Of a DNA stretch of 38,464 nt, positions 11,237 to 34,048 are shown in pieces (the stretch's first letter is position 1; every line of letters begins with the position of its first letter). The DNA comes from a virus. Taxonomy: Duplodnaviria; Heunggongvirae; Uroviricota; Caudoviricetes. Both the position numbers and the translations under genes were made by a program. The notes beneath the pieces are model-generated. The model had not been told where the DNA came from. It saw only the letters and a list, made by a program, of their open reading frames with translations, and ran no database searches. The stretch is taken from the IMG/VR virus record IMGVR_UViG_2698536454_000007. One strand, written 5' to 3'.

Positions 11237-11312
11237 GGCCCTTTAGCTCAGTGGTGAGAGCGAGCGACTCATAATCGCCAGGTCGCTGGTTCAAATCCAG
11301 CAAGGGCCACCA
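11237..11312 (+). tRNA. ileZ: tRNA with CAU anticodon (Met or lysidine-modified Ile2; ileZ-like)
   Basis: Cloverleaf: acceptor GGCCCTT/AAGGGCC, D-arm AGCTCAGTGGTGAGAGC, anticodon loop CTCATAA, T-arm GGTTCAAATCC, 3' CCA. Confidence 0.85.
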
Positions 11313-11319
11313 TCACATA

Positions 11320-11396
11320 CCGCTATTAGCTCATCAGGAAAGAGCGCCAGCCTTCGAAGCTGGCTGCGCGGGGTTCAAGTCCCCGATGGCGGTCCA
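11320..11396 (+). tRNA. argN: tRNA-Arg (anticodon UCG)
   Basis: Acceptor CCGCTAT/ATGGCGG, anticodon stem-loop GCCAG-CCTTCGAA-CTGGC, T-arm GGTTCAAGTCC, CCA end. Confidence 0.85.
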
Positions 11397-11409
11397 TTAT
11401 CTGCATCAT

Positions 11410-11486
11410 GCGTTGTTAGCTCAGCCGGACAGAGCAATTGCCTTCTAAGCAATCGGTCACTGGTTCGAATCCAGTACAACGCGCCA
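11410..11486 (+). tRNA. argO: tRNA-Arg (anticodon UCU, reads AGA)
   Basis: Acceptor GCGTTGT/ACAACGC, anticodon loop CCTTCTAAG, T-arm GGTTCGAATCC, CCA end. Confidence 0.85.
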
Positions 11487-11974: not shown

Positions 11975-13837
11975 ATGGCATTTAAACACTATGATGTTGT
12001 CAGGGCGGTATCGCCGTCAGACCTTGCTGATGCACTTGCTCAAAAAATTCGTGAAGGATGGCAACCATACGGCGGGCCGTTTTCTTCGTATACGGATGAT
12101 GGCGCAGCACTTATTCAGGCGATTGTCGCAGAAGGTGATGTGGTCGTCAGTGGTGCAACTGAGCCGGAGTGGTACTACGTCATCGTACTGGCCGGGCAGT
12201 CTAATGCCATGGCTTACGGTGAAGGGCTTCCGCTTCCGGATTCATACGATGCGCCCCATCCGCGCATTAAGCAACTGGCCCGTCGTAACACAGTGACTCC
12301 CGGTGGTGAAGTATGCGTATTTAACGACATCATTCCTGCTGACCATTGTCTGCATGATGTTCAGGATATGAGTACGATTAATCATCCCCGGGCTGACCTG
12401 AGCAAAGGGCAGTACGGCTGTGTCGGACAGGGCTTACATATTGCCAAAAAACTGCTTCCGTATATCCCTAATAATGCGGGGATCCTGCTGGTACCATGCT
12501 GTCGTGGTGGTTCGGCATTCACCCAGGGCACGGAGGGGACATTCAGCGAGTCCACGGGGGCCAGTCAGGATTCGGCTCGCTGGGGAGTGGGTAAGCCGTT
12601 ATATCAGGATCTGCTTTTCCGCACGAAGGCAGCATTGCAGAAAAACCCGAAAAACGTTTTGCTGGCGATATGCTGGATGCAGGGGGAATTCGATATGACG
12701 AATGCCAGTTACGCCCAGCAGCCAGCAGCATTTCTTGCAATGGTACAGCAGTTCCGTGCTGACCTTGCCGGGCTGGCGGCGCAGTGTCACGGTGGAAGTC
12801 CGGCATCAGTCCCCTGGATTTGTGGCGACACGACATACGCGTGGAAACAAGAACACGGTACGCAATATGAAGTGGTATATGGTGCATATAAAGGTAAAGA
12901 ATCCCAGCAGATTTATTTTGTTCCCTTTATGACCGATGGTAGCGGAGTTAATACACCGACAAACAACCCGTCAGAAGATCCTGATATTGTCGGGTCTGGT
13001 TATTACGGTTCGGCATCCCGAACGAACAAAAACTGGGTATCATCAAATCGCCCGACGCATTTCAGCTCATGGGCGCGTCGTGGCATTATTCCCGATCGTA
13101 TGGCAACCGCTATTCTGAACGCAGCCGGGCGCACCTCAGCCTTCATTAGTGGTAAGGCACCGGAAATCAAACCCTCGCCCGGCGGCGACACGCCATCGGG
13201 GCCGTCTGAAGATGCATCCATACGCACAATCTCCCTGTTGCCGACAGCCGGAGACGCTGCTGCGCAGGGCTGGAGCATTAAGAATGGCGGAATTCAGTTG
13301 TCAGATGGTGTATTTAAGATCACCAAGCAGAGCAATAAAGCCTGGTCCCTGACGCGCCCGGTGGATGACGCAGTCTCCCTGCTGACACGGGGTGGCAGAC
13401 TGAGCTGTAAGTTTCGCCTGTCAGGCGCACTGACCAACAACCAGTTCGGTCTGGGAATTTATCTGTATACCGATGTAGCGTTACCTGACGTCGTGGCGAT
13501 GACCGGGACTGGTAACCCGTTCCTGATGTCGTTCTTCACCCAGACCACAGACGGCAAACTGAATCTGATGCATCACAAGAAAGCAGGAAACACAAAGTTG
13601 GGCGAGTTCGGGAATTACAGTAACGACTGGCAGACGCTGGAGCTGGTGTTCACCGCCGGCAGTGCCACGGTTGCTCCGAAACTGAATGGAGTGGCTGGCC
13701 CGGCATTCCAGGTCATAAAAGACAGTCTGACAGTGGGACTAAATGCACTGACGCTGACGGATATTACCAAAAATGCAACGTATGGCGTTGAGATAGAAAG
13801 TCTGGTGCTGGAGATAAATGCACCGGCATCATCATAA
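11975..13837 (+). CDS. nanS: Prophage NanS-p-type sialate O-acetylesterase (YjhS family), 620 aa
   Basis: SGNH/SASA signature [14 protein letters not shown] after an N-terminal DUF1737-like region; GGGAGG Shine-Dalgarno; occupies the slot just downstream of stxAB in Stx phages. Confidence 0.85.
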
Positions 13838-13986: not shown

Positions 13987-14202
13987 ATGTACCAGATGGA
14001 AAAAATCACAACAGGTGTGTCATACACCACGTCAGCGGTGGGAACGGGCTACTGGTTCCTGCAGTTGCTGGACAGGGTTTCCCCGTCTCAGTGGGCGGCA
14101 ATAGGCGTGCTGGGGAGTCTGCTGTTTGGGCTGCTGACATATCTGACTAACCTGTATTTCAAAATCAGAGAGGACCGTCGTAAGGCGGCACGGGGAGAGT
14201 AA
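13987..14202 (+). CDS. S: Class II pinholin, S21-type, with dual-start motif (Met1 and Met4)
   Basis: [71 protein letters not shown], 71 aa; GGGAGACGGGG Shine-Dalgarno. Confidence 0.85.
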
Positions 14203-14206
14203 TTCA

Positions 14207-14551
14207 ATGACTCAAAACTATGAACTGATTGTGAAAGGGATCCGCAATTTTGAGAATAAAGTTACGGTAACTTTAGCGTTACGGGACAAAAAACGCTTTG
14301 ACGGTGAAATTTTTGACCTGGACATCTCGCTGGACCGTGTTGAAGGTGCCGCGCTGGAGTTTTATGAGGCAGCAGCCAGAAGGAGCATCAGACAGGTCTT
14401 CCTGGATGTTGCTGCCGGGTTATGTGAAGGGGATGAGCAGTCACCGGAAAAGCGCCCCATAATTTTAGAGGCGCAGGGTGTGTGGATAACCTACAAAGGA
14501 AAACTGCCGGGAAGAATTACTGGTTCACTGAAGACTCCGCCGAAATGGTAA
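14207..14551 (+). CDS. YdfR-like protein (114 aa) inserted between holin and endolysin
   Basis: GGGGAGAG Shine-Dalgarno 7 nt before ATG, 4 nt after the holin stop; position matches ydfR between essQ and rrrQ in Qin. Confidence 0.6.
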   Translation: MTQNYELIVKGIRNFENKVTVTLALRDKKRFDGEIFDLDISLDRVEGAALEFYEAAARRSIRQVFLDVAAGLCEGDEQSPEKRPIILEAQGVWITYKGKLPGRITGSLKTPPKW

Positions 14552-14789
14552 TTTCACCAGCATATTTTTCTTCCAGTAATGCCGCCAGCCACTTGAAAGA
14601 ATTTTGTTGTTCCTGGGACCATTTGGGGTTGCGTGACTCAAGCAGAAGCGATGCCAGTGTTGGTTGCATTTGTTCTCTGGGAATTGAGAAGGCCAGATAT
14701 GAAAATGCAACAGTGAGAGCATTTACATCATCCCGAAGCCTGGAAATGCAGTCGAGCAACTCCTGTAGAGAAATGGTGTTATTGTCCAT
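14517..14789 (-). CDS. Hypothetical protein (90 aa) encoded antisense within the lysis cassette
   Basis: Minus-strand ATG at 14789 with GAGGA 6 nt upstream and a TACAAT -10-like hexamer just upstream; 3' end overlaps the YdfR-like gene by 35 nt. Confidence 0.5.
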   Translation of the reverse strand: MDNNTISLQELLDCISRLRDDVNALTVAFSYLAFSIPREQMQPTLASLLLESRNPKWSQEQQNSFKWLAALLEEKYAGEITISAESSVNQ

Positions 14790-14894
14790 AAATAATCCTC
14801 ATGATTGTATTGACCTGTTAGCAGCCTGAGGCAACAGGCTGGAACTGATAAACATATCCAGGGGTCCGGAACCGATAAATCCTGATAAATATCC

Positions 14895-15428
14895 ATGAAC
14901 GCAAAAATCAGATACGGCCTGTCGGCTGCCGTTCTGGCGCTGATTGGTGCAGGGACGTCTGCGCCTGAAATCCTCGACCAGTTTCTTGACGAAAAAGAAG
15001 GTAACCACACCACGGCATACCGTGATGGTGCGGGGATCTGGACCATCTGCCGCGGTGCCACCCGAGTGGATGGTAAGCCTGTCGTCCCGGGTATGAAGTT
15101 ATCGAAGGAAAAGTGCGACCAGGTTAACGCCATTGAACGTGATAAGGCGCTGGAGTGGGTGGAGCGCAATATTAAAGTACCGCTGACCGAACCCCAGAAG
15201 GCGGGTATCGCGTCATTTTGTCCTTATAACATTGGCCCCGGTAAGTGTTTCCCGTCTACGTTTTACAGACGGATTAATGCAGGTGATCGAAAAGGTGCCT
15301 GCGAAGCGATTCGCTGGTGGATTAAGGACGGTGGCAGAGACTGCCGTATCCGCTCAAATAATTGCTACGGTCAGGTATCCCGGCGAGACCAGGAAAGTGC
15401 ACTGGCGTGCTGGGGAATTGACAGATAA
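14895..15428 (+). CDS. R: SAR endolysin (T4-lysozyme-like, GH24), RrrD/RrrQ-type
   Basis: N-terminal signal-anchor-release segment YGLSAAVLALIGAGTSA followed by the catalytic region EGNHTTAYRDGAGIWTICRG; the sequence matches recalled DLP12 RrrD almost throughout. Confidence 0.9.
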   Translation: MNAKIRYGLSAAVLALIGAGTSAPEILDQFLDEKEGNHTTAYRDGAGIWTICRGATRVDGKPVVPGMKLSKEKCDQVNAIERDKALEWVERNIKVPLTEPQKAGIASFCPYNIGPGKCFPSTFYRRINAGDRKGACEAIRWWIKDGGRDCRIRSNNCYGQVSRRDQESALACWGIDR

Positions 15429-15520
15429 GCAGAATATTTTGCTGAAAAATGACGTTGGCCAACGCGGGCGGATAACACGAAATCCTGCGAACTGGCAAAA
15501 ACTAAGTGAATAAAAGTAAA

Positions 15521-15560
15521 ACCCCGTTTGTTGGCCGCAAACGGGGTTTTGTGTTTCTGA
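15521..15560 (+). terminator. Strong intrinsic terminator downstream of the endolysin gene
   Basis: 11-12 bp perfect stem AAACCCCGTTTG...CAAACGGGGTTT followed by TGTGTTTCT. Confidence 0.7.
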
Positions 15561-15583
15561 CCTTGAGTAAGGCAAGGGAGAAC

Positions 15584-15766
15584 ATGGGAAAGTATAAACG
15601 AATTCTGTTGAGATTGACTATGAAAAACGGCCTTGAACTGAAAGCGCCTGTAACTGATGACGTCAGCAGAGCGCTGGCTTTTGCTATTAAGTGGGTGGCG
15701 GTCGGTATTGCTGTGTCTCCGATGCTGTATGGGCTGGCAAAACTGGTCATTGCGTTGAAATCGTGA
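15584..15766 (+). CDS. Small hypothetical protein (60 aa) with a C-terminal hydrophobic segment
   Basis: AAGGGAG Shine-Dalgarno 4 nt before ATG 15584; the ORF-track entry at 15506 is a longer version that runs through the terminator hairpin. Confidence 0.4.
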   Translation: MGKYKRILLRLTMKNGLELKAPVTDDVSRALAFAIKWVAVGIAVSPMLYGLAKLVIALKS

Positions 15767-15778
15767 AGAGGATTAAGC

Positions 15779-15910
15779 ATGTCAGACAAGCTCATAACGC
15801 TGGCGAAGATCCTCTGTGTAATCGTCGGCATTTCATTTTCACTAATGCTGGTTGCTATTTGCTTTGCCACTGCCTGGCGCGTCTTAACTTTGTCATGGCT
15901 GGTGGGGTGA
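15779..15910 (+). CDS. Small hydrophobic membrane peptide (43 aa)
   Basis: GAGGA Shine-Dalgarno before ATG 15779; single predicted transmembrane helix ([26 protein letters not shown]); its stop overlaps the Rz Shine-Dalgarno. Confidence 0.35.
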
Positions 15911-15917
15911 GGGGGAT

Positions 15918-16385
15918 ATGAACCGTGTTCTGTGTGTGGTGATTATTGTCCTGCTGGTAGCCTGTGGTGTGCTTAGTCTGGGGCTGAATCATTACCGCGA
16001 TAACGCCATTACCTACAAAGCGCAACGCGATAAAAAAGCCAGTGAGCTGAAGCTGGCGAACGTGACAATTACTGATATGCAGGTACGCCAGCGTGATGTC
16101 GCTGCACTTGATGCCAGATACTCGAGGGAATTAGCCGATGCGAGAGCTGAAAATGAAACTCTGCGTGCTGATGTTGCCGCTGGTCGTAAGCGCCTGCGCA
16201 TCAACGCCAACTGTCCAGGCTCCTTGCGTAAAGCCCCCATCACCTCCGGCGTGGATAATGCAACCGGTCCCCGACTGGCAGAAGCCGCTGAACGGGATTA
16301 TTTCATCCTCAGAGAACGGCTGATGGCAATGCAGAAGCAACTGGAAGGAGCACAGGAATATATCCGTACCCAGTGTATACCGTGA
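15918..16385 (+). CDS. Rz: Inner-membrane spanin Rz
   Basis: N-terminal transmembrane segment followed by coiled-coil-like sequence; GGGGGA Shine-Dalgarno; contains an embedded +1-frame Rz1. Confidence 0.85.
16138..16323 (+). CDS. Rz1: Outer-membrane lipoprotein spanin Rz1, embedded in Rz
   Basis: Lipobox LVVSAC followed by a proline-rich region [19 protein letters not shown]; resembles recalled RzoD. Confidence 0.75.
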
Positions 16386-16851
16386 TGTTTTGTTATGAAG
16401 GTGTTACTGGTAACGTTAAGGTAATTTAACAAAGAGTCAGTTCCGGACTTTATAGTGTGCTCAGTTCATGGACAAAAACGATTTCTGTGATAAATATTTT
16501 GAATATTATTTACAGGTAAATGGAGTGGGGCGCATGGATAGAAATATTACAATAGAGTATGAAGTATATGCCCGTATTGTATGGGCAGAGAAGGCAAAAA
16601 CACGGTAATTCCGTGTGTTGCCATGATACCTGATTGGCAGAATAGTTGTTTGGTTTTGAGTATATAGTCAGCGTTTTTTGTTCAGTAATTGCCCCCTCAA
16701 AAAATAATAAAATAAGGTGATTATTTTTGTTTATTATTTAGTTTTTTTTTGTGTGTTATTTTATTGTTTTTGCGTGGTTTGTTTTTTATTGTTATTTCAT
16801 TAAGGGAAGGTAAATTCAGGATGGCAGTCTGTAGATAATCGGAGGTCACTT

Positions 16852-17166
16852 ATGCTACATGATCACGTGGCAGAATGTCTGGAGAAAAAAGGACTGTACC
16901 GGAGAGCAGCTGAACGATGGGCAAAAGTGATGGTACAGCTAAGTGATGACCAGAAAAGAAAAGTGGCGGCACAGAAACGAGCAGAGTGTTTGCGTAAGGC
17001 GCGCCGGACTCCGGTTTCACCGGTGAACCTGACCGAAATAAAACAAGCGGTCAACAGACTACATTCTGAGTTGGGAATGGGATTTGAAGAGCGGCGGGTA
17101 TTCCGACGATATAAAGGGACAGGAGAACAGAATACGTCCGGAAACGCGCGGTCAAAAAAATGCTAA
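16852..17166 (+). CDS. PerC-family (Pch-like) transcriptional activator, 104 aa
   Basis: GGAGG Shine-Dalgarno 6 nt before ATG; N-terminal motif ECLEKKGLYRRAAERWAKVM fits the PerC family signature as recalled; preceded by a long AT/GT-rich tract. Confidence 0.55.
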   Translation: MLHDHVAECLEKKGLYRRAAERWAKVMVQLSDDQKRKVAAQKRAECLRKARRTPVSPVNLTEIKQAVNRLHSELGMGFEERRVFRRYKGTGEQNTSGNARSKKC

Positions 17167-17202
17167 AAAATATCTGAGAGCGTTATTGCCTGTTACCATA
17201 AG

Positions 17203-17232
17203 AAAAAGCGACTTTAGTGGTCGCTTTTTGTG
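17203..17232. terminator. Bidirectional terminator between the convergent PerC-like and RHH-like genes
   Basis: GCGAC-TTTAGTG-GTCGC hairpin with A-run upstream and T-run downstream. Confidence 0.6.
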
Positions 17233-17247
17233 TCATATATAAGTCGT

Positions 17248-17472
17248 TTAAGTAAACCTGTCTGAACAGGTGCTCTGGTCGTGTTTGTCTTTGTTGGGTA
17301 CAAATTGAGCATGTTTTTCATTAATTAATCTTCTTCTGCAGGCTTCAATAACCCACGCTGAAAAATTACCTGAACCTTTCTGATCAAGAGCGATGTTAAT
17401 TTGTTCAATCATTTGGTTAGGAAAGCGGATGTTGCGGGTTGTTTTTCTGCGGGTTCTGTTCTTCGTTGACAT
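17248..17472 (-). CDS. Small basic protein, possibly ribbon-helix-helix (YlcI-like position before cos/Nu1)
   Basis: Minus-strand 74-aa ORF (MSTKNRTRRKTTRNIRFPNQMIEQINIALDQKG...); weak Shine-Dalgarno; assignment by synteny with DLP12 ylcI. Confidence 0.45.
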   Translation of the reverse strand: MSTKNRTRRKTTRNIRFPNQMIEQINIALDQKGSGNFSAWVIEACRRRLINEKHAQFVPNKDKHDQSTCSDRFT

Positions 17473-17659
17473 GAGGTTGCCCCGTATTCAGTGTCGCTGA
17501 TTTGTATTGTCTGAAGTTGTTTTTACGTTAAGTTGATGCAGATCAATTAATACGATACCTGCGTCATAATTGATTATTTGACGTGGTTTGATGGCGTAGA
17601 TGCACGTTGTGACATATAGATGATAATTATTATCATTTTGCGGGTCCTTTCCGGCGATC

Positions 17660-17830
17660 CGACAGGTTACGGGGCGGCGACCTCGCGGGTTTTCGCTATT
17701 TATGAAAATTTTCCGGGATCCATGTCCGGTTTCTCTTCAAGTTAACTATATGAAAAATATAAAAACAGGTCTTCTGTGAACCGGACATGAACAAAAAACA
17801 GACATGTAAACCGGACATGACCGGTTTTGT
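17660..17830. other. cos: cos site: cosN with the 12-nt cohesive end GGGCGGCGACCT (17672-17683) and a cosB-like array of terminase-binding repeats
   Basis: ...GACAGGTTACG|GGGCGGCGACCT|CGCGGGTTTTCGCTATTTATGAAAATTTTCCGG matches recalled lambda cos termini. Downstream lie CATGTCCGGT (inverted, 17721), an A/T-rich segment, then AACCGGACATGA twice (17779 and 17809). Confidence 0.8.
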
Positions 17831-17866
17831 TGTGATTGTGAGGTGAGAGTTTTTGCGAGGTGAGGA

Positions 17867-18376
17867 GTGGCTACGCAGACTGAAGTTGCCAGGCATTTAA
17901 GTCTGACCGATCGCCAGCTTCGCAGATTGCAGAAATTGCCGGGTGCCCCGATATCGAATAAGCGAGGGCAACTGGATCTGGATGCCTGGCGCGATTTTTA
18001 CATATCGTATCTGAGGAGAAGTAAAAACGATGTGCCTGATGGCGATAGCGAAGACGACTATGAGGAGAAATTGCTTATTGCCAGATGGGAACTGACAGCA
18101 GAACAGGCTGTTACACAGCAGTTAAAAAATGAGGTGTCAAAAGGAAAACTTATTGACACCGGGTTCTGTATTTTTGCCCTCAGTAAGCTGGCAATGGCGT
18201 TATCCAGTACGCTTGATTCCATCCCTTTATCCATGCAGCGACAGTTTCCTGATTTAACACCGCGCCATCTTGACCATCTGAAAACCCTTATTGCTAAGGG
18301 GGCAAATCAGTGTGCGCGGGCAGGGGATAAATTACCGGATTTACTCGATGAATATATCAGAGCAACAACTGAATAA
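17867..18376 (+). CDS. nu1: Terminase small subunit (Nu1-like)
   Basis: GTG start with GAGG 6 nt upstream; the C-terminal half (...FCIFALSKLAMALSSTLDSIPLSMQRQFPDL...LLDEYI) resembles lambda Nu1, while the N-terminal HTH region differs. Confidence 0.8.
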   Translation: MATQTEVARHLSLTDRQLRRLQKLPGAPISNKRGQLDLDAWRDFYISYLRRSKNDVPDGDSEDDYEEKLLIARWELTAEQAVTQQLKNEVSKGKLIDTGFCIFALSKLAMALSSTLDSIPLSMQRQFPDLTPRHLDHLKTLIAKGANQCARAGDKLPDLLDEYIRATTE

Positions 18377-20276
18377 TATGATGGCTGCCGTTTCGGTTGC
18401 GCTGCAGCCTCTGGTCAGGGTTGTACCAATGACGGCAGTTGAATGGGCTGATCAAAATTATTATCTGCCTAAAGAATCTTCATATGGTGAGGGAGAATGG
18501 AAAACGCTGCCATTCCAGATCGCCATTATGAACTGTATGGGTAACGACCAGGTTCGCACGGTTAACCTGATTAAATCTGCCCGTGTTGGCTATACAAAGA
18601 TGTTGCTGGGGGTGGTCGGGTATTTTATTGAGCATAAATCCCGAAACAGTCTGCTTTTTCAGCCCACGGATTCTGCCGCTGAAGATTTTATGAAGTCTCA
18701 CGTGGAGGCGACGATTCGGAACGTGCCATGCCTGAAAGACCTTTCCCCATGGCTGGGTCGTAAACATCGTGACAATACTCTCACGCTGAAACGCTTTTCA
18801 TCGGGCGTCGGTTTCTGGTGCCTGGGCGGTGCAGCCGCCAAAAACTACCGTGAAAAATCCGTGGACGTGGTCTGCTATGACGAGCTTTCCTCGTTCGAGC
18901 CGGATGTCGAAAAAGAGGGCTCGCCAACCCTGCTGGGGGATAAGCGTATTGAGGGCTCTGTATGGCCAAAATCCATTCGCGGCTCGACGCCTAAAATCAA
19001 AGGTACCTGCCAGATCGAAAAAGCGGCCAACGAGTCGGCGCATTTCATGCGTTTCTATGTGCCCTGCCCGCACTGTGGGGAGGCGCAGTATCTGAAATTT
19101 GGCGATGAATCCACGCCTTTTGGCCTTAAATGGGAGAAGGACAGCCCCGAAAGCGTTTTCTACCTCTGTGAACATCATGGCTGCGTGATCCATCAGTCTG
19201 AGCTTGACCAGAGTAACGGGCGCTGGATCTGTGAAAACACGGGTATGTGGACCCGTGACGGCCTGATGTTTTTCAGCGCCCGGGGGGATGAAATTCCGCC
19301 GCCGCGCTCCATCACGTTCCATATCTGGACGGCGTACAGTCCGTTCACCACCTGGATACAGATAGTCTATGACTGGCTGGATGCACTGAAAGATCCCAAC
19401 GGCCTGAAAACCTTTGTGAACACCACGCTGGGCGAGACCTGGGAAGAGGCCGTGGGCGAAAAACTCGATCACCAGGTACTGATGGATAAGGTGGTGCGTT
19501 ACACGGCGGCGGTGCCTGCCCGGGTGGTTTATCTGACGGCGGGCATTGACTCGCAGCGAAACCGTTTTGAGATGTATGTCTGGGGATGGGCACAGGGAGA
19601 GGAAGCCTTTCTGGTGGATAAAATCATCATTATGGGCCGTCCCGATGAGGAAGAGACGCTGTTACGTGTGGATGCGGCGATCAACAAAAAATACTGCCAT
19701 GCAGACGGAACCGAAATGACCATTTCCCGTGTCTGCTGGGACACCGGGGGGATCGATGGTGAAATTGTCTATCAGAGGTCAAAAAAACACGGTGTTTTCC
19801 GGGTGCTGCCGGTAAAAGGCGCATCTGTCTATGGCAAGCCGGTGATCACCATGCCGAAAACCCGCAATCAGCGGGGCGTGTATCTGTGTGAAGTGGGGAC
19901 GGACACCGCAAAAGAAATTCTCTATGCCCGTATGAAAGCCGATCCCACTCCTGCGGATGAAGCCACGTCGTATGCCATCCGTTTTCCTGATGATCCGGAG
20001 ATTTTTTCGCAGACAGAGGCGCAGCAACTGGTCGCGGAAGAGCTTGTGGAGAAGTGGGAAAAAGGAAAGATGCGTCTGCTGTGGGATAACAAAAAGCGGC
20101 GTAACGAAGCGCTGGACTGCCTGGTGTATGCCTACGCGGCATTACGTGTGTCCGTGCAACGCTGGCAGCTTGATCTGGCTGTACTGGCAAAATCCCGGGA
20201 AGAAGAGACGACCCGGCCAACCCTGAAAGAACTGGCAGCGAAGCTGTCCGGAGGAGTGAATGGTTACAGTCGCTGA
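18348..20276 (+). CDS. A: Terminase large subunit (gpA-like)
   Basis: MNISEQQ... start overlapping the Nu1 3' end as in lambda; long collinear similarity to recalled lambda A (e.g. YYLPKESSYGEGEWKTLPFQ, WPKSIRGSTPK, TAYSPFTTW). Confidence 0.9.
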   Translation: MNISEQQLNNMMAAVSVALQPLVRVVPMTAVEWADQNYYLPKESSYGEGEWKTLPFQIAIMNCMGNDQVRTVNLIKSARVGYTKMLLGVVGYFIEHKSRNSLLFQPTDSAAEDFMKSHVEATIRNVPCLKDLSPWLGRKHRDNTLTLKRFSSGVGFWCLGGAAAKNYREKSVDVVCYDELSSFEPDVEKEGSPTLLGDKRIEGSVWPKSIRGSTPKIKGTCQIEKAANESAHFMRFYVPCPHCGEAQYLKFGDESTPFGLKWEKDSPESVFYLCEHHGCVIHQSELDQSNGRWICENTGMWTRDGLMFFSARGDEIPPPRSITFHIWTAYSPFTTWIQIVYDWLDALKDPNGLKTFVNTTLGETWEEAVGEKLDHQVLMDKVVRYTAAVPARVVYLTAGIDSQRNRFEMYVWGWAQGEEAFLVDKIIIMGRPDEEETLLRVDAAINKKYCHADGTEMTISRVCWDTGGIDGEIVYQRSKKHGVFRVLPVKGASVYGKPVITMPKTRNQRGVYLCEVGTDTAKEILYARMKADPTPADEATSYAIRFPDDPEIFSQTEAQQLVAEELVEKWEKGKMRLLWDNKKRRNEALDCLVYAYAALRVSVQRWQLDLAVLAKSREEETTRPTLKELAAKLSGGVNGYSR

Positions 20277-20466
20277 ACTACAGGCGCTACGTCAGGCGCG
20301 CCTTGATTTATTAACCGGTAAACGGGTGGTGTCTGTCCAGAAAGATGGTCGCAGAATTGAATATACGGCGGCTTCTCTGGATGAGCTTAACCGGGCGATC
20401 AATGATGCGGAGTCGGTACTGGGGACAACCCGACGTCGCCGTCGTCCGCTGGGAGTGAGGTTATGA
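20260..20466 (+). CDS. W: Head-tail joining protein W
   Basis: 68 aa; LLTGKRVVSVQKDGRRIEYTAASL resembles lambda W; GGAGGAG Shine-Dalgarno. Confidence 0.85.
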   Translation: MVTVAELQALRQARLDLLTGKRVVSVQKDGRRIEYTAASLDELNRAINDAESVLGTTRRRRRPLGVRL

Positions 20467-22055
20467 AACGAACGCCTGTCCTGATTGATGTGAACGGCGT
20501 TCCGCTTCGTGAGAGTCTCAGCTACAACGGGGGCGGCGCAGGATTTGGCGGGCAAATGGCGGAGTGGTTGCCACCGGCGCAGAGTGCCGATGCAGCCCTG
20601 CTGCCTGCGTTGCGTCTGGGGAATGCCCGGGCAGATGATCTGGTGCGCAATAACGGGATAGCGGCCAATGCGGTGGCCCTGCATAAGGATCATATTGTCG
20701 GGCATATGTTTCTGATCAGCTACCGTCCGAACTGGCGCTGGCTGGGGATGCGGGAGACTGCGGCAAAAAGTTTTGTCGATGAGGTGGAGGCGGCCTGGTC
20801 GGAATACGCCGAAGGGATGTCTGGCGAGATCGACGTGGAAGAGAAACGCACGTTTACGGAATTTATTCGTGAAGGTGTGGGCGTTCATGCGTTTAACGGC
20901 GAAATCTTTGTGCAGCCGGTCTGGGATACGGAGAGCACGCAACTGTTTCGTACGCGTTTTAAAGCCGTGAGTCCGAAACGGGTGGACACGCCAGGACACG
21001 GTATGGGGAACCGTTTTCTGCGGGCCGGGGTGGAGGTCGATCGATATGGCCGTGCCGTTGCGTACCATATCTGTGAGGATGATTTTCCGTTCTCTGGTAG
21101 TGGACGATGGGAACGGATCCCGCGTGAACTACCCACCGGGCGTCCGGCCATGCTGCATATTTTCGAGCCGGTGGAGGACGGGCAGACCCGTGGGGCTAAT
21201 CAGTTTTACAGCGTCATGGAACGGCTGAAGATGCTGGATTCCCTGCAGGCAACACAGCTTCAGTCGGCCATTGTGAAAGCCATGTATGCAGCGACGATTG
21301 AAAGTGAACTTGATACCGAAAAGGCCTTTGAATATATCGCCGGTGCGCCGCAGGGGCAGAAGGATAATCCGCTTATTAATATTCTGGATAAGTTCTCCAC
21401 CTGGTATGACACGAATAACGTGACGCTGGGCGGTGTCAAAATTCCGCACCTTTTCCCCGGTGATGATCTGAAACTGCAGACTGCGCAGGATTCAGACAAT
21501 GGATTTTCGGCGCTTGAACAGGCGCTGCTGCGGTATATCGCCGCCGGTCTTGGCGTTTCCTACGAACAGTTGTCCCGGGATTACTCGAAGGTCAGTTATT
21601 CAAGTGCCCGCGCCTCCGCCAATGAGTCGTGGCGCTATTTTATGGGACGACGAAAATTTATTGCGTCCCGGCTGGCCACGCAGATGTTTTCCTGCTGGCT
21701 GGAAGAGGCACTTCTTCGGGGGATTATTCGTCCGCCACGGGCGCGTTTTGATTTTTATCAGGCGCGATCAGCCTGGTCACGGGCTGAGTGGATTGGAGCC
21801 GGAAGAATGGCCATTGACGGGCTCAAGGAAGTCCAGGAATCAGTGATGCGCATTGAGGCCGGACTGAGCACGTATGAGAAAGAGCTGGCGCTGATGGGCG
21901 AGGATTATCAGGACATTTTCCGCCAGCAGGTCAGGGAATCTGCTGAGCGACAAAAAGCCGGACTCTCACGTCCGGTGTGGATAGCGCAGGCGTATGAGCA
22001 GCAGATAGCGGAGAGTCGCAGGCCGGAAGAGGAGACAACACCACGTGAGACGTAA
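20463..22055 (+). CDS. B: Portal protein (gpB-like)
   Basis: 530 aa, position and size as lambda B; ATGA overlap with W stop. Confidence 0.9.
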   Translation: MKRTPVLIDVNGVPLRESLSYNGGGAGFGGQMAEWLPPAQSADAALLPALRLGNARADDLVRNNGIAANAVALHKDHIVGHMFLISYRPNWRWLGMRETAAKSFVDEVEAAWSEYAEGMSGEIDVEEKRTFTEFIREGVGVHAFNGEIFVQPVWDTESTQLFRTRFKAVSPKRVDTPGHGMGNRFLRAGVEVDRYGRAVAYHICEDDFPFSGSGRWERIPRELPTGRPAMLHIFEPVEDGQTRGANQFYSVMERLKMLDSLQATQLQSAIVKAMYAATIESELDTEKAFEYIAGAPQGQKDNPLINILDKFSTWYDTNNVTLGGVKIPHLFPGDDLKLQTAQDSDNGFSALEQALLRYIAAGLGVSYEQLSRDYSKVSYSSARASANESWRYFMGRRKFIASRLATQMFSCWLEEALLRGIIRPPRARFDFYQARSAWSRAEWIGAGRMAIDGLKEVQESVMRIEAGLSTYEKELALMGEDYQDIFRQQVRESAERQKAGLSRPVWIAQAYEQQIAESRRPEEETTPRET

Positions 22056-23550
22056 TCTTTCACACATTATTGCCGCAGCATTCAATGAACCGCTGCTTCT
22101 GGAGCCCGCCTATGCGCGGGTTTTCTTTTGCGCGCTCGGGCGCGAGATGGGGGCATCAAGTCTTTCGGTACCACAACAGCAGGTACAGTTTGATGCTCCC
22201 GGAATGCTGGCTGAAACGGACGAGTACATGGCCGGAGGTAAACGACCGGCCCGTGTTTACCGGGTGGTGAACGGTATTGCTGTACTGCCGGTGACCGGCA
22301 CGCTGGTGCACCGGCTGGGGGGTATGCGGCCATTTTCCGGAATGACAGGCTATGACGGCATTGTCGCCTGTCTTCAGCAGGCAATGGCGGATAGCCAGGT
22401 GCGGGGCGTACTGCTGGACATTGACAGTCCGGGCGGGCAGGCCGCCGGCGCGTTTGACTGCGCTGACATGATTTACCGCCTCCGTCAGCAGAAGCCGGTC
22501 TGGGCACTGTGCAATGACACGGCCTGCTCTGCAGCCATGCTGCTGGCGTCGGCCTGCTCCCGACGGCTGGTTACCCAGACATCCCGTATCGGCTCCATTG
22601 GCGTGATGATGAGCCATGTCAGCTATGCCGGTCATCTGGCGCAGGCCGGTGTTGATATCACGCTGATTTACTCAGGGGCGCACAAGGTGGATGGCAATCA
22701 GTTTGAAGCGTTGCCGGCAGAGGTTCGCCAGGACATGCAACAGCGCATTGATGCGGCGCGCCGGATGTTTGCTGAAAAAGTAGCGATGTATACCGGTCTG
22801 TCTGTTGATGCTGTCACGGGAACAGAGGCCGCCGTTTTTGAAGGTCAGTCCGGCATTGAGGCCGGGCTGGCGGATGAATTAATCAATGCGTCGGATGCCA
22901 TCAGTGTGATGGCCACGGCGCTGAACAGTAATGTCAGAGGAGGCACTATGCCGCAATTAACTGCAACGGAAGCCGCCGCGCAGGAGAACCAGCGAGTGAT
23001 GGGGATCCTGACATGCCAGGAAGCGAAAGGACGTGAACAGCTTGCCACGATGCTGGCAGGACAACAGGGCATGAGCGTTGAACAGGCCCGGGCGATTCTG
23101 GCCGCGGCGGCACCACAGCAGCCGGTGGCATCCGCGCAGAGTGAAGCCGATCGCATTATGGCGTGTGAAGAAGCGAAAGGTCGTGAACAACTGGCGGCAA
23201 CGCTGGCGGCGATGCCGGAGATGACGGTGGAAAAAGCCCGCCCGATCCTGGCTGCTTCACCGCAGGCGGATGCCGGACCCTCACTCCGTGATCAGATCAT
23301 GGCACTGGATGAGGCAAAAGGGGCTGAGGCGCAGGCTGAACAGCTGGCTGCCTGCCCGGGAATGACTGTGGAGAGCGCCCGGGCTGTGCTGGCTGCGGGA
23401 TCAGGTAAGGCAGAACCGGTCTCTGCATCCACAACCGCCATGTTTGAACGCATCATGGCGAACCATTCACCGGCAGCGGTACAGGGTGGCGTGCCACAGA
23501 CGTCAGCAGACGGTGATGCGGACGTGAAAATGCTCATGGCCATGCCATGA
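22045..23550 (+). CDS. C: Prohead protease / minor capsid protein C (S49 ClpP-like) with a C-terminal scaffold region
   Basis: N-terminal FNEPLLLEPAYARVFFCAL and protease core GIAVLPVTGTLV...SPGG...VWALCND...IGSIGVMM resemble lambda C; GTG start 22045. Confidence 0.85.
   Translation: MRRNLSHIIAAAFNEPLLLEPAYARVFFCALGREMGASSLSVPQQQVQFDAPGMLAETDEYMAGGKRPARVYRVVNGIAVLPVTGTLVHRLGGMRPFSGMTGYDGIVACLQQAMADSQVRGVLLDIDSPGGQAAGAFDCADMIYRLRQQKPVWALCNDTACSAAMLLASACSRRLVTQTSRIGSIGVMMSHVSYAGHLAQAGVDITLIYSGAHKVDGNQFEALPAEVRQDMQQRIDAARRMFAEKVAMYTGLSVDAVTGTEAAVFEGQSGIEAGLADELINASDAISVMATALNSNVRGGTMPQLTATEAAAQENQRVMGILTCQEAKGREQLATMLAGQQGMSVEQARAILAAAAPQQPVASAQSEADRIMACEEAKGREQLAATLAAMPEMTVEKARPILAASPQADAGPSLRDQIMALDEAKGAEAQAEQLAACPGMTVESARAVLAAGSGKAEPVSASTTAMFERIMANHSPAAVQGGVPQTSADGDADVKMLMAMP
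22948..23550 (+). CDS. nu3: Scaffolding protein Nu3-like, in-frame internal start within C
   Basis: ATG 22948 is in frame with C and preceded by GGAGG 5 nt upstream; same nested arrangement as lambda Nu3. Confidence 0.6.
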   Translation: MPQLTATEAAAQENQRVMGILTCQEAKGREQLATMLAGQQGMSVEQARAILAAAAPQQPVASAQSEADRIMACEEAKGREQLAATLAAMPEMTVEKARPILAASPQADAGPSLRDQIMALDEAKGAEAQAEQLAACPGMTVESARAVLAAGSGKAEPVSASTTAMFERIMANHSPAAVQGGVPQTSADGDADVKMLMAMP

Positions 23551-23586
23551 AGCCAGTGCTGACCATCAACAGGAGGTTTTTACAAT

Positions 23587-23934
23587 ATGGTGACGAAAAC
23601 TATCACTGAACAGCGTGCGGAAGTACGTATTTTTGCCGGTAATGATCCGGCTCATACCGCCACAGGCAGCAGCGGGATTTCCTCGGCAACACCGGCACTG
23701 ACGCCCCTGATGCTGGATGAGGCCACCGGGAAACTGGTGGTCTGGGACGGACAAAAAGCCGGTAGTGCGGTTGGCATACTGGTACTGCCGCTTGAAGGCA
23801 CAGAGACGGCGCTGACCTATTACAAGTCGGGGACCTTTGCGACGGAGGCAATCCGCTGGCCTGAAAGTGTGGATGAACACAAAAAGGCCAACGCCTTTGC
23901 CGGCAGTGCCCTGAGTCACGCGGCGCTGCCGTAA
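23587..23934 (+). CDS. D: Head decoration protein D
   Basis: 115 aa; DPAHTAT...TPLMLD...KSGTF...AFAG motifs as in lambda gpD; AGGAGG Shine-Dalgarno. Confidence 0.9.
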   Translation: MVTKTITEQRAEVRIFAGNDPAHTATGSSGISSATPALTPLMLDEATGKLVVWDGQKAGSAVGILVLPLEGTETALTYYKSGTFATEAIRWPESVDEHKKANAFAGSALSHAALP

Positions 23935-23991
23935 CACGTTATCAGGCCACCGCGGTGGCCTGACTGATTTCTGAATGAAAGGAACTGATTT

Positions 23992-25020
23992 ATGGGATTG
24001 TTTACGACCCGCCAGTTACTCGGTTATACCGAACAAAAAGTGAAATTTCGTGCGCTGTTTCTGGAGCTGTTTTTCCGCCGTACGGTGAATTTCCATACCG
24101 AAGAGGTGATGCTGGACAAAATTACCGGAAAAACGCCGGTGGCGGCCTATGTTTCCCCGGTTGTTGAAGGAAAAGTGCTGCGTCATCGTGGTGGTGAAAC
24201 CCGCGTGTTACGTCCGGGCTACGTCAAGCCGAAACACGAATTTAATTACCAGCAGGCGGTTGAGCGTCTTCCCGGTGAAGATCCGGCTCAGCTGAACGAC
24301 CCGGCCTACCGTCGTCTGCGTATCATCACTGATAACCTCAAACAGGAAGAGCACGCCATTGTCCAGGTGGAAGAAATGCAGGCGGTGAATGCCGTGCTGT
24401 ATGGCAAATACACGATGGAAGGAGACCAGTTCGAGAAAATTGAGGTCGATTTTGGCAGGTCGACGAAGAATAACATCACTCAGGGTAGTGGTAAGGAGTG
24501 GTCAAAACAGGATCGTGACACGTTCGATCCTACACATGATCTTGACCTCTACTGCGACCAGGCCAGCGGTCTTGTGAATATTGCCATTATGGACGGTACC
24601 GTCTGGCGTCTGCTGAATGGCTTTAAATTGTTCCGCGAAAAACTGGATACCCGTCGCGGTTCAAATTCTCAACTCGAAACAGCGGTGAAAGACCTGGGCG
24701 CGGTGGTGTCCTTCAAAGGGTATTACGGCGATCTGGCCATTGTGGTGGCAAAAACGTCTTATGTGGCAGAGGACGGTACCGAAAAACGTTATCTGCCTGA
24801 GGGCTCGCTGGTCCTGGGGAATACGGCAGCAGAGGGCATTCGTTGCTATGGTGCCATTCAGGATGCGCAGGCGTTGTCCGAAGGTGTGGTGGCCTCTTCC
24901 CGTTATCCGAAACACTGGCTGACGGTGGGGGATCCCGCCCGTGAATTTACCATGACGCAGTCCGCGCCGCTGATGGTGTTGCCGGACCCGGATGAGTTTG
25001 TGGTGGTACAGGTGAAATAA
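23992..25020 (+). CDS. E: Major capsid protein E
   Basis: 342 aa; extensive similarity to lambda gpE (PGYVKPKHE, IVQVEEMQAVNAVLYGKYTM, LDTRRGSNS, GDPAREFTMTQSAPLM). Confidence 0.9.
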   Translation: MGLFTTRQLLGYTEQKVKFRALFLELFFRRTVNFHTEEVMLDKITGKTPVAAYVSPVVEGKVLRHRGGETRVLRPGYVKPKHEFNYQQAVERLPGEDPAQLNDPAYRRLRIITDNLKQEEHAIVQVEEMQAVNAVLYGKYTMEGDQFEKIEVDFGRSTKNNITQGSGKEWSKQDRDTFDPTHDLDLYCDQASGLVNIAIMDGTVWRLLNGFKLFREKLDTRRGSNSQLETAVKDLGAVVSFKGYYGDLAIVVAKTSYVAEDGTEKRYLPEGSLVLGNTAAEGIRCYGAIQDAQALSEGVVASSRYPKHWLTVGDPAREFTMTQSAPLMVLPDPDEFVVVQVK

Positions 25021-33520: not shown

Positions 33521-34048
33521 TTATTGAATGATGCCGCAGGCCATTCTCGCACCACCACCGCCCAGGGGCTCCGGATGGTCATGATGGTTATCACCGCCAG
33601 CATGAAGCATGAGAGAACGCCCTTTAATCTCTTTTAATGAGTTCAGTCTCGGGGCCAGGACCGGGTAGTTCGCTTTTCCGTCATGCGTCACGAACAGCGC
33701 AGGGAGGTCGCCCAGGTGTCCATCCGGAGACCAGGGGCCAAGATGTTTGCCGGTGTTTTTCGGGTCAAAGTGACCGCCAGCCGATAATGCTGCGACCGGT
33801 TTTCCGTCTTTCAGTGCCGGGGCGCAATTTCCTTTTTCGTGCACATGAAAACCATGAATGCCTTCAGACAGAGAGTGAAGGGCTGGTGTGAACAGCAGAC
33901 CGTAGGGGGTCTCCTGAATGGTTATTTTTCCAATGCTGACTTCTTTTCCGTCAGCACTGACAAGGTTCATTGGGACTTCCTGTTCTGCTGCGTATCCGCA
34001 TGATGCTGCTGTCAGCATGGCAATGGCAGCAATGATTTTACATTTCAT
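33521..34048 (-). CDS. sodC: Periplasmic Cu,Zn superoxide dismutase (SodC), prophage moron
   Basis: Signal peptide [20 protein letters not shown]; copper/zinc ligand motifs [36 protein letters not shown]; GAGGG Shine-Dalgarno before ATG 34048. The ORF-track entry is a long artefactual N-terminal extension. Confidence 0.85.

What the first reader, a model, noticed from the sequence alone, without database searches (positions are those of the whole stretch)
17660..17830. cos site with a lambda-identical cohesive end but non-lambda cosB repeats
The 12-nt cohesive-end sequence and flanks match lambda cosN as I recall it, but the downstream terminase-binding repeats are AACCGGACATGA-type (one inverted, two direct, separated by an A/T-rich bend-like segment), and the Nu1 N-terminal DNA-binding region differs from lambda while the C-terminal half is lambda-like. 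This is the pattern expected of a distinct packaging specificity (phage 21-like) on a lambda-type cleavage site.
Basis: partly seen in the sequence, partly recalled or inferred. Interest (0 to 1): 0.45.

Follow-up and report, generated by a model that had tools for sequence, protein, structure and literature searches.

The report
Lambda-type cos with its own terminase-binding repeats
This is the DNA-packaging start site (cos) of an E. coli lambda-like prophage: it has lambda's cutting site, but different binding repeats matched to a different small terminase protein. That makes it a common, little-described packaging type, related to but not the same as phage 21.

Summary
The 12-nt cohesive end GGGCGGCGACCT lies at 17672-17683. 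cosQ (17642-17648) and the lambda right-end sequence lie upstream. The next 45 bp are 100% identical to lambda, and similarity then stops. Downstream lie CATGTCCGGTT repeats: R3 (17721-17731, +), R2 (17779-17790, -) and R1 (17809-17820, -). A 72% A+T spacer between R3 and R2 carries an IHF-like site exactly where lambda has I1.

This is a distinct cosB/TerS pair on a lambda-type cosN, but it is not phage 21 specificity. TerS is only 32-34% identical to 21 gp1 and lambda Nu1. Its DNA-binding domain is not alignable by sequence, although it is predicted to have the same winged-helix fold. The two known specificity residues are R/K here (lambda Q/E, 21 E/S). The repeat differs from 21's CATGTCGG by an inserted C. 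Only TerL is 21-like (93%).

Relatives from enterics to Aeromonas, Pseudomonas and Azospirillum pair this "MATQ" TerS with a TCCGGTT core at the R3 position. The module occurs in 1,154 of 5,426 complete E. coli genomes. It is the cos/Nu1 of O157 Sakai prophages Sp4/Sp14, published in 2009. I rate it a new member of a known kind, of modest interest.

The parts
17642..17648 (+). cosQ heptamer GGGTCCT (packaging termination signal)
   Evidence: Identical heptamer at the same 30-bp distance from the first base of the cohesive end as in lambda, 21 and 9 related loci. Invariant in 32 distinct E. coli variants.
17672..17683 (+). cosN cohesive-end sequence GGGCGGCGACCT (predicted 12-nt 5' overhang)
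   Evidence: Identical to lambda and 21 bp 1-12. Cleavage itself was not tested.
17684..17719 (+). I2-like spacer between cosN and R3, lambda-identical up to 17716; contains TATGAAAATTTTC (17701-17713)
   Evidence: 100% identity to lambda bp 1-45 ends at 17716. An IHF-like match lies at 17701-17713. I2 is described as conserved and essential in PMC4856287.
17720..17732 (+). R3-type TerS-binding repeat CCATGTCCGGTTT (core at cos position 50-60)
   Evidence: Invariant in 32 variants. The TCCGGTT core lies at position 53-55 in all 10 enteric relatives examined.
17743..17755 (-). I1-type IHF site (TTTCATATAGTTA on the minus strand) inside the 72% A+T spacer 17733-17778
   Evidence: Two mismatches to WATCAANNNNTTR at cos position 72-84. 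Relatives carry 0-1 mismatch sites at position 71-73 in the same orientation.
17779..17790 (-). R2-type repeat (AACCGGACATGA, inverted relative to R3)
   Evidence: The R3-to-R2 spacing is 54 bp in 9 of 10 relatives (55 bp in the tenth) although the spacer sequences differ.
17796..17807 (-). Degenerate repeat copy AAACAGACATGT, probably non-functional
   Evidence: Three mismatches. This is the most variable stretch among the 32 variants.
17809..17826 (-). R1-type repeat AACCGGACATGA (17809-17820, same orientation as R2), overlapped by an imperfect plus-strand copy ACATGACCGGTT (17815-17826)
   Evidence: R1 is present in only some relatives (L009, L108) and absent from six others. One natural variant has R2 and R1 fused by a deletion.
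17867..18376 (+). TerS (Nu1-family small terminase, 169 aa, GTG start) with a divergent 'MATQ' winged-helix DNA-binding domain
18348..20276 (+). TerL (gpA-family large terminase). The first ~25 codons belong to the non-lambda, non-21 cassette; the rest is phage 21 type.
   Evidence: Pfam GpA_ATPase and GpA_nuclease. 93% amino-acid identity to 21 gp2 and 66% to lambda gpA. Nucleotide similarity to phage 21 begins at 18422.

Best explanation
This is the cos site of a lambda-like prophage. It belongs to a packaging-specificity class of its own.

Proposed mechanism:
- A dimer of the N-terminal winged-helix domains of the phage's own TerS binds the inverted repeats R3 and R2 (CATGTCCGGTT).
- IHF bends the A/T-rich I1 site between them, bringing R3 and R2 together. 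R1 acts as an optional extra site.
- The bound TerS positions the 21-type TerL on the lambda-identical cosN to make nicks staggered by 12 nt.
- cosQ plus cosN at the next cos end the packaging round.

The specificity unit is a ~705-bp cassette (17717-18421): cosB, the TerS gene, and the first ~25 codons of TerL, which pair with the TerS C-terminus. It sits between lambda-like and 21-like DNA.

What is shown: the sequences, their positions, their conservation, their co-occurrence with the TerS type, and the predicted fold. What is inferred: binding, bending, nicking, and exclusion of lambda and 21 terminases.
For: 1. Layout matches lambda and 21 site by site. cosQ lies at -30. The R3 core lies at 50-56 (53-59 in lambda and 21). 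I1 lies at 72-84 (74-86). The R2 core ends at 118 (120 in lambda, 119 in 21). The TerS start is at 196 (191 in lambda, 189 in 21).

2. The repeats are not chance matches: three exact 10-mers lie within 100 bp and nowhere else in the window.

3. Selection on the repeats. In 32 distinct E. coli variants R3 is invariant and R2 and R1 nearly so, while the spacers and the degenerate copy vary.

4. Co-occurrence of protein and site. Every locus examined with a 'MATQxEVAxHL' TerS has a TCCGGTT core downstream of cosQ/cosN at the R3 position. These loci come from E. coli, Enterobacter, Citrobacter, Salmonella, Klebsiella, Aeromonas phiARM81ld, Pseudomonas LPPA33, other gammaproteobacteria and Azospirillum-like genomes. 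Enteric members keep R3-IHF-R2 at a constant 54 bp, and several have perfect IHF consensus sites.

5. Fine covariation. The base 5' of TCCGGTT is G in 5 of 5 loci whose TerS reads LRRLQK. It is T in all 11 loci checked that have N, D or T at that residue.

7. Evidence that the system works. Plaque-forming phages PhiR12_1 to PhiR12_5 carry the same cosB and TerS (96.5% nt, 99.4% aa). O157 Sakai prophages Sp4 and Sp14 carry this same cos and Nu1 (same cos sequence and Nu1 N-terminus in the machine-read figure), and Sp4 DNA is packaged although its nu1 is disrupted (PMC2669165, Fig. S8).

8. Difference from lambda and 21. The specificity positions are R19/K23, against Q20/E24 in lambda and E20/S24 in 21. 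The site has 21's G at the bp-56 equivalent and lambda's C at the bp-59 equivalent, plus one extra base pair.
Against: No binding, nicking or packaging experiment exists for these repeats.

The IHF match in this copy has two mismatches. Matches of that quality occur about 0.7 times per 100 bp in the window, so on its own it is weak.

R1 has the opposite orientation to R1 of lambda and 21, so the higher-order complex may differ.

The R3 core lies 3 bp closer to cosN than in lambda and 21.

The covariation counts ignore shared ancestry of the loci.

The repeat shares CATGTC..GG with 21's sites, so some cross-recognition by 21 terminase is not excluded. N15 terminase packages lambda DNA despite different R sites (PMC4669245).
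Confidence: 0.85

Rival explanations
1. The site has true phage 21 packaging specificity: 21 gp1 and this TerS recognise each other's cosB, and the repeats are simply 21-type R sites.
For: The repeat core CATGTC(C)GG resembles 21's R2 and R1, CATGTCGG. TerL is 93% identical to 21 gp2. cosQ and cosN are shared.
Against: TerS is 32% identical to gp1 overall, and the DNA-binding end does not align by BLAST or HMM. The specificity residues differ (R19/K23 against E20/S24). There is a 1-bp insertion inside the core, the 3' half differs (GGTT against GGAC/GGGC), and the bp-59 equivalent is C, not G. No nucleotide similarity to 21 exists between 17717 and 18421.
Confidence: 0.06
2. The repeats are not terminase sites. 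They would instead be operators for another DNA-binding protein or a promoter element, for example for a regulator encoded next to cos such as the PerC-like or YnfO-like gene.
For: Inverted and direct repeats flanking an A/T-rich segment are also typical of operators. Two small regulator-like genes lie just upstream.
Against: The repeats sit at the R3 and R2 coordinates of lambda and 21, measured from the cohesive end. They track the TerS N-terminal type across genera even where the upstream genes differ (peptidase C10, KilA-N and lysis genes). Simple forms abut the TerS start in phage genomes whose records begin at the cohesive end.
Confidence: 0.04
3. In this particular prophage the cos is an inert relic: the element is cryptic and the site is never used.
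For: Many E. coli lambdoid prophages are defective. The immunity region resembles the cryptic Qin prophage (dicA, dicB, dicC). No induction data exist for this strain.
Against: TerS, TerL, portal, protease, decoration, capsid and tail genes are all annotated as intact in a genome that matches window 14000-24000 at 100% identity. The cos sequence equals the commonest variant among 80 viral contigs. Even defective Sakai prophages with this cos are packaged. Being defective would not change what the site is.
Confidence: 0.1

Closest known systems
Phage lambda cos (cosQ-cosN-I2-R3-I1-R2-R1) with gpNu1/gpA terminase
   Same: cosQ, the 12-nt cohesive end and bp 1-45 are identical. The order and spacing of R3, the IHF site and the inverted R2 are the same. 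The TerS gene follows directly and overlaps TerL. The TerS C-terminal two-thirds is homologous (46% identity). The DNA-binding domain has the same predicted winged-helix fold.
   Different: The repeat is CATGTCCGGTT, not CGTTTCC(G/T)TT. The R3 core lies 3 bp closer to cosN. R1 points the other way. The TerS DNA-binding domain cannot be aligned by sequence and has a shorter wing. TerL is only 66% identical.
Phage 21 cos with gp1/gp2 terminase (the classic second specificity)
   Same: The concept is the same: lambda's cosQ and cosN joined to a private cosB and TerS recognition helix. TerL is 93% identical from residue ~25. The repeat shares CATGTC..GG with 21's R1 and R2.
   Different: TerS is 32% identical. 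The specificity residues are R/K, not E/S. The repeat has an extra C and a different 3' half. R1 orientation differs. There is no nucleotide similarity across cosB, TerS or the first 25 codons of TerL.
O157:H7 Sakai prophages Sp4 and Sp14 (Asadulghani et al. 2009, PMC2669165, Fig. S8)
   Same: The same cos sequence and Nu1 N-terminus in the machine-read figure. That paper marks cosQ, cosN and an IHF site, and it reports packaging of Sp4 DNA, presumably by Sp14 terminase.
   Different: The published alignment stops at ...CCATGT. It does not describe the cosB repeats, the I1 site or a specificity class.
N15 and phiARM81ld-type 'simple' cosB (a single R3 next to the TerS start)
   Same: Distant members of the same TerS type (Aeromonas phiARM81ld, Pseudomonas LPPA33) have a simple cosB: tandem TCCGGTTCCGGTT at position ~52-68, directly before the TerS gene. 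This is the N15 layout.
   Different: The window has the complex tripartite form. N15's own R3 (GAGGTTGTTGTT) and TerS are unrelated in sequence.
PICI cos with Rpp (EcCICFT073)
   Different: Here the reader protein is a complete TerS with a TerL-binding end. It is followed by TerL and a full head-and-tail module. No rpp gene is present.

Membership tests
lambda-like cos site | 12-nt cohesive-end sequence with strong identity to lambda's | tested here: met
   GGGCGGCGACCT at 17672-17683, 12 of 12 identical to lambda. Actual cleavage cannot be tested with these tools.
lambda-like cos site | cosQ heptamer about 30 bp upstream of the nick | tested here: met
   GGGTCCT at 17642-17648, with the same offset as in lambda and 21.
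lambda-like cos site | TerS-binding R3 at about bp 48-65, plus an inverted R2 beyond an IHF site (complex cosB) | tested here: met
   R3 at 50-60, an IHF-like site at 72-84, inverted R2 at 108-119. The 54-bp spacing is conserved in relatives.
lambda-like cos site | R1 in the same orientation as R3 | tested here: not met
   R1 (17809-17820) is a direct repeat of R2. Only an imperfect overlapping copy (2 mismatches) has the R3 orientation. R1 is absent from six relatives.
lambda-like cos site | TerS and IHF actually bind, and TerL nicks at cosN | not testable with these tools
   This needs footprinting, EMSA and cos-cleavage assays.
Nu1-type small terminase (Pfam PF07471) | Profile match above the curated cut-off | tested here: met
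   67.9 bits against a cut-off of 30. The match covers only residues 49-150, which are profile positions 62-163.
Nu1-type small terminase (Pfam PF07471) | N-terminal winged helix-turn-helix DNA-binding domain like gpNu1 residues 1-68 | tested here: met
Phage 21 packaging specificity | gp1 recognition helix with Glu20 and Ser24 | tested here: not met
   The aligned residues are Arg19 and Lys23. Overall identity is 32% (residue roles from PMC4669245).
Phage 21 packaging specificity | R sites of the type C(A/G)TGTCGG | tested here: not met
   The window has CATGTCCGGTT, with one extra base pair and different 3' bases.
Phage 21 packaging specificity | gp2-type large terminase | tested here: met
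   93% identity over residues 19-643.
Lambda packaging specificity | R sites CGTTTCC and a Nu1 recognition helix with Gln20 and Glu24 | tested here: not met
   Similarity to lambda ends at bp 45.
PICI (Rpp-dependent) cos | cos followed by an rpp gene, with no terminase or capsid genes | tested here: not met
   cos is followed by TerS, TerL, portal, protease, capsid and tail genes.

The most novel reading that the evidence does not exclude
The 'MATQ' TerS with its TCCGGTT core may be an old recognition system that spans the Proteobacteria. It may have sub-specificities set by one contact: Arg20 with the G in CATGTCCGGTT, against Asn/Asp20 with T. The enteric tripartite cosB would then have been built from a simple tandem site. 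In E. coli strains that carry several lambdoid prophages, all sharing cosN and cosQ, this class would form a private cross-packaging group, as with Sp4 rescued by Sp14. That group would decide which defective prophages and virulence cargo get mobilised.
Probability: 0.45. Interest if true: 0.5.

Novelty: new member of a known kind. Interest (0 to 1): 0.3.

Why it matters
Lambda and 21 are the textbook pair for how a terminase chooses its own DNA. Experimental work covers only lambda, 21, N15/Monarch and the PICI Rpp system.

The class found here is about twice as common in complete E. coli genomes as the 21 class: 1,154 genomes against 583. It is present in O157:H7 prophages, and its repeats carry no annotation.

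It offers a natural specificity cassette with clear borders (cosB, TerS, and the first 25 codons of TerL). It also offers a simple testable contact (Arg20 with G).

It could explain which co-resident prophages can package each other's DNA. That bears on how defective prophages carrying virulence genes are mobilised.

Tried and rejected
- A PDB sequence search with TerS gave only chance-level hits, and NCBIfam gave none. The DNA-binding domain cannot be placed by sequence.
- I tested whether K-12 Qin NohA is this type, because sources name relatives 'Qin Nu1-like'. It is not: the Qin cos and NohA are lambda type.
- The IMG/VR scan returned only near-identical loci (99%). That was useful for conservation but not for diversity. 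Diversity came from the GTDB scan and from contig look-ups.
- The two Virology 2015 papers on lambda/21 contacts and on N15 recognition (PMC5006951, PMC4461450) are not held. I took residue and base-pair roles from PMC4669245 instead.
- No paper describing the PhiR12 phages was found.
- I considered and rejected a PICI or satellite origin, because full terminase and structural genes are present.
- I considered and rejected chance as the source of the repeats.

Full report
**What is in the sequence**

Window 17400-17671 is 96% identical to the right end of lambda DNA. Window 17672-17716 is 100% identical to lambda bp 1-45 (alignments).

- The 12-nt cohesive-end sequence GGGCGGCGACCT lies at 17672-17683.
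- The cosQ heptamer GGGTCCT lies at 17642-17648, 30 bp upstream, as in lambda and phage 21.
- Similarity to lambda stops abruptly after bp 45.
- From 17717 to 18421 there is no nucleotide similarity to lambda or to phage 21.
- From 18422 onward the window is 92.8% identical to phage 21.

The non-matching stretch holds the repeats, the small terminase gene (17867-18376, GTG start) and the first ~25 codons of the large terminase gene (18348-20276).

**The repeats**

- The exact 10-mer ATGTCCGGTT occurs three times in the 38.5-kb window, all within 100 bp: 17722 (+), 17779 (-) and 17809 (-).
- About 0.001 exact 9-mer matches are expected by chance in 120 bp.
- Numbered from the first base of the cohesive end, the plus-strand copy lies at 50-60, where lambda and 21 have R3.
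- The first inverted copy lies at 108-119, where they have R2.
- The 46-bp spacer is 72% A+T. It carries TTTCATATAGTTA on the minus strand at position 72-84, two mismatches from the IHF consensus. Lambda I1 is at 74-86.
- The third copy (17809-17820) is a direct repeat of R2. An imperfect copy in the R3 orientation overlaps it.
- A fourth, degenerate copy lies at 17796-17807.

The observation therefore holds in every point.

**The proteins**

- TerS (169 aa) matches Pfam Phage_Nu1 only over residues 49-150.
- tblastn aligns lambda Nu1 only from residue 73 (46% identity) and 21 gp1 only from residue 64 (40%).
- Full-length identity is 34% to Nu1 and 32% to gp1. In the four-sequence alignment, Nu1 and gp1 look much closer to each other than either is to this TerS.
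- The N-terminal 60 residues match nothing by sequence in the PDB or NCBIfam.
- The fold is therefore that of gpNu1, but the reading surface is different.
- The residues aligned with lambda/21 specificity residues 20 and 24 (Q/E in lambda, E/S in 21; PMC4669245) are Arg19 and Lys23.
- TerL is 93% identical to 21 gp2 from residue 19 and 66% identical to lambda gpA.

**Is the repeat the TerS site? Comparative evidence**

Close relatives. Among 80 viral-contig loci with 99%-identical TerS there are 32 distinct cos sequences. R3 is invariant and R2 and R1 are nearly so. The cosQ-cosN interval, the spacers and the degenerate copy vary.

Diverged enteric relatives. I examined TerS proteins 60-88% identical, from Enterobacter, Citrobacter, Salmonella, Klebsiella and E. 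coli.
- All of them have cosQ and a cohesive-end-like sequence whose right half varies.
- The TCCGGTT core lies at position 53-55.
- An IHF site with 0-2 mismatches lies at position 71-82, in the same orientation.
- An inverted copy lies exactly 54 bp after R3 (55 bp in one locus).
- The spacer sequences differ throughout.

Distant relatives. TerS proteins 33-45% identical come from Aeromonas phage phiARM81ld, Pseudomonas phage LPPA33, other gammaproteobacteria and Azospirillum-like genomes. They keep the N-terminal MATQxEVAxHL motif. They carry TCCGGTT, or tandem TCCGGTTCCGGTT, next to the TerS start and downstream of cosQ where that is visible. In phiARM81ld, whose record starts at the cohesive end, the core is at 52-68.

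Fine covariation. The base just 5' of TCCGGTT is G in all five loci whose TerS reads LRRLQK. It is T in all 11 loci checked that have N, D or T at that residue. This fits a direct Arg-G contact. The loci are not independent, so it is a lead and not a proof.

**Relation to lambda and 21 sites**

The three cores, side by side:
- lambda R3: CGTTTCCGTT
- 21 R3: CGTGTCGGTA (21 R2 and R1: CATGTCGG)
- window: CATGTCCGGTT

The window site has 21's G at the bp-56 equivalent and lambda's C at the bp-59 equivalent. It also has one more base pair, and the core begins 3 bp closer to cosN.

PMC4669245 reports that bp 56 and 59 and residues 20 and 24 set lambda/21 discrimination, and that lambda Glu24 clashes with G at bp 56. 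By inference both heterologous terminases should discriminate against this site. Cross-packaging has not been tested.

**Function and prior knowledge**

- The window is an E. coli chromosomal lambdoid prophage with intact-looking lysis, terminase, head and tail genes.
- Plaque-forming phages PhiR12_1 to PhiR12_5 carry the same cosB and TerS.
- The machine-read supplement Fig. S8 of Asadulghani et al. 2009 (PMC2669165) shows the same cos sequence and Nu1 N-terminus for O157 Sakai prophages Sp4 and Sp14. It aligns them with lambda and marks cosQ, cosN and an IHF site.
- That paper reports that Sp4 DNA is packaged although its nu1 is disrupted, presumably by Sp14 terminase.
- The published alignment ends at ...CCATGT, so the repeats are not described there.
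- The Feiss-laboratory papers I could read list the lambda, 21, N15/Monarch, gifsy-1 and PICI systems only.

**Prevalence in 5,426 complete E. coli genomes**

| cosB class | genomes with a match |
|---|---|
| lambda | 3,997 |
| this class | 1,154 (1,815 places) |
| phage 21 | 583 |

No feature is annotated under the matches listed for this class.

**Verdict**

The finding is real. It is best read as the cos site of a separate cosB/TerS specificity class of the lambda-like packaging systems. The class is carried on a small cassette between lambda-like and 21-like DNA.

The 'phage 21-like' label is right as an analogy, and right for TerL. It is wrong for the specificity determinants.

The locus is already in the literature and in annotation as a cos plus Nu1 homologue. 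The new elements are the repeat-level description, the link between TerS type and site across the family, and the possible Arg-G contact. They extend a well-understood mechanism, so interest is modest.

Noticed in passing
window 17717-18421: The mosaic junctions frame a ~705-bp cassette: cosB, TerS and the first ~25 codons of TerL. Lambda-identical DNA lies on the left and 93%-identical phage 21 DNA on the right. The TerL N-terminus appears to travel with the TerS it must bind.
   Followed up: partly
one of the IMG/VR loci L027-L106 (variant listed): One natural variant has R2 and R1 fused into a single copy (GTGAACCGGACATGACCGGTTTT). This is a 30-bp deletion of the kind expected from unequal crossing-over between the direct repeats. 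Another variant has lost one copy of the TTG(T/C)GAGGTGAG repeat upstream of the TerS start.
   Followed up: no
window 17836-17864: A direct repeat, TTGTGAGGTGAG / TTGCGAGGTGAG, lies just before the GTG start of TerS. The second copy supplies the ribosome-binding site. The purpose of the duplication is unknown.
   Followed up: no
L002 (lambda) bp 41-47: Lambda's own left end contains TCCGGTT at bp 41-47, just upstream of its R3. This is the core motif of the MATQ-type sites but 13 bp out of register. It could be coincidence or a relic.
   Followed up: no
window 16852-17166 (+) and 17248-17472 (-): A PerC-family regulator gene and a YlcI/YnfO-family gene lie between the Rz lysis gene and cos. 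PerC homologues on EHEC prophages and PICIs are known activators of the LEE island.
   Followed up: no
window ~33521-34048 (-): A sodC (Cu,Zn superoxide dismutase) cargo gene is inserted on the opposite strand between the tail assembly genes and the J tail-tip gene, as annotated in a genome that matches the window at 100% over 14000-24000 (coordinates carried over with that offset).
   Followed up: no
window 11237-11486 and 11975-13837: Three tRNA genes (anticodons CAT, TCG, TCT) follow the Q antiterminator region. After them comes a 620-aa DUF6645 ORF, at the place where Stx phages carry stx genes.
   Followed up: no
L009, L110, L112, L011, L109, L113: Within this TerS family the right half of the 12-nt cohesive end varies freely (for example GGGCGGAAACCA, GGGCGACGCGCT, GGACGACAGCCT). 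cosQ and the TATGAAAATTTT segment of I2 stay conserved.
   Followed up: partly
L015-L018, L020-L021: Some Shigella, E. coli, E. albertii and Trabulsiella loci match only TerS residues 26/57/68-169. This suggests that the same TerS C-terminal body is joined to other N-terminal DNA-binding domains, that is, domain swapping inside the gene.
   Followed up: no
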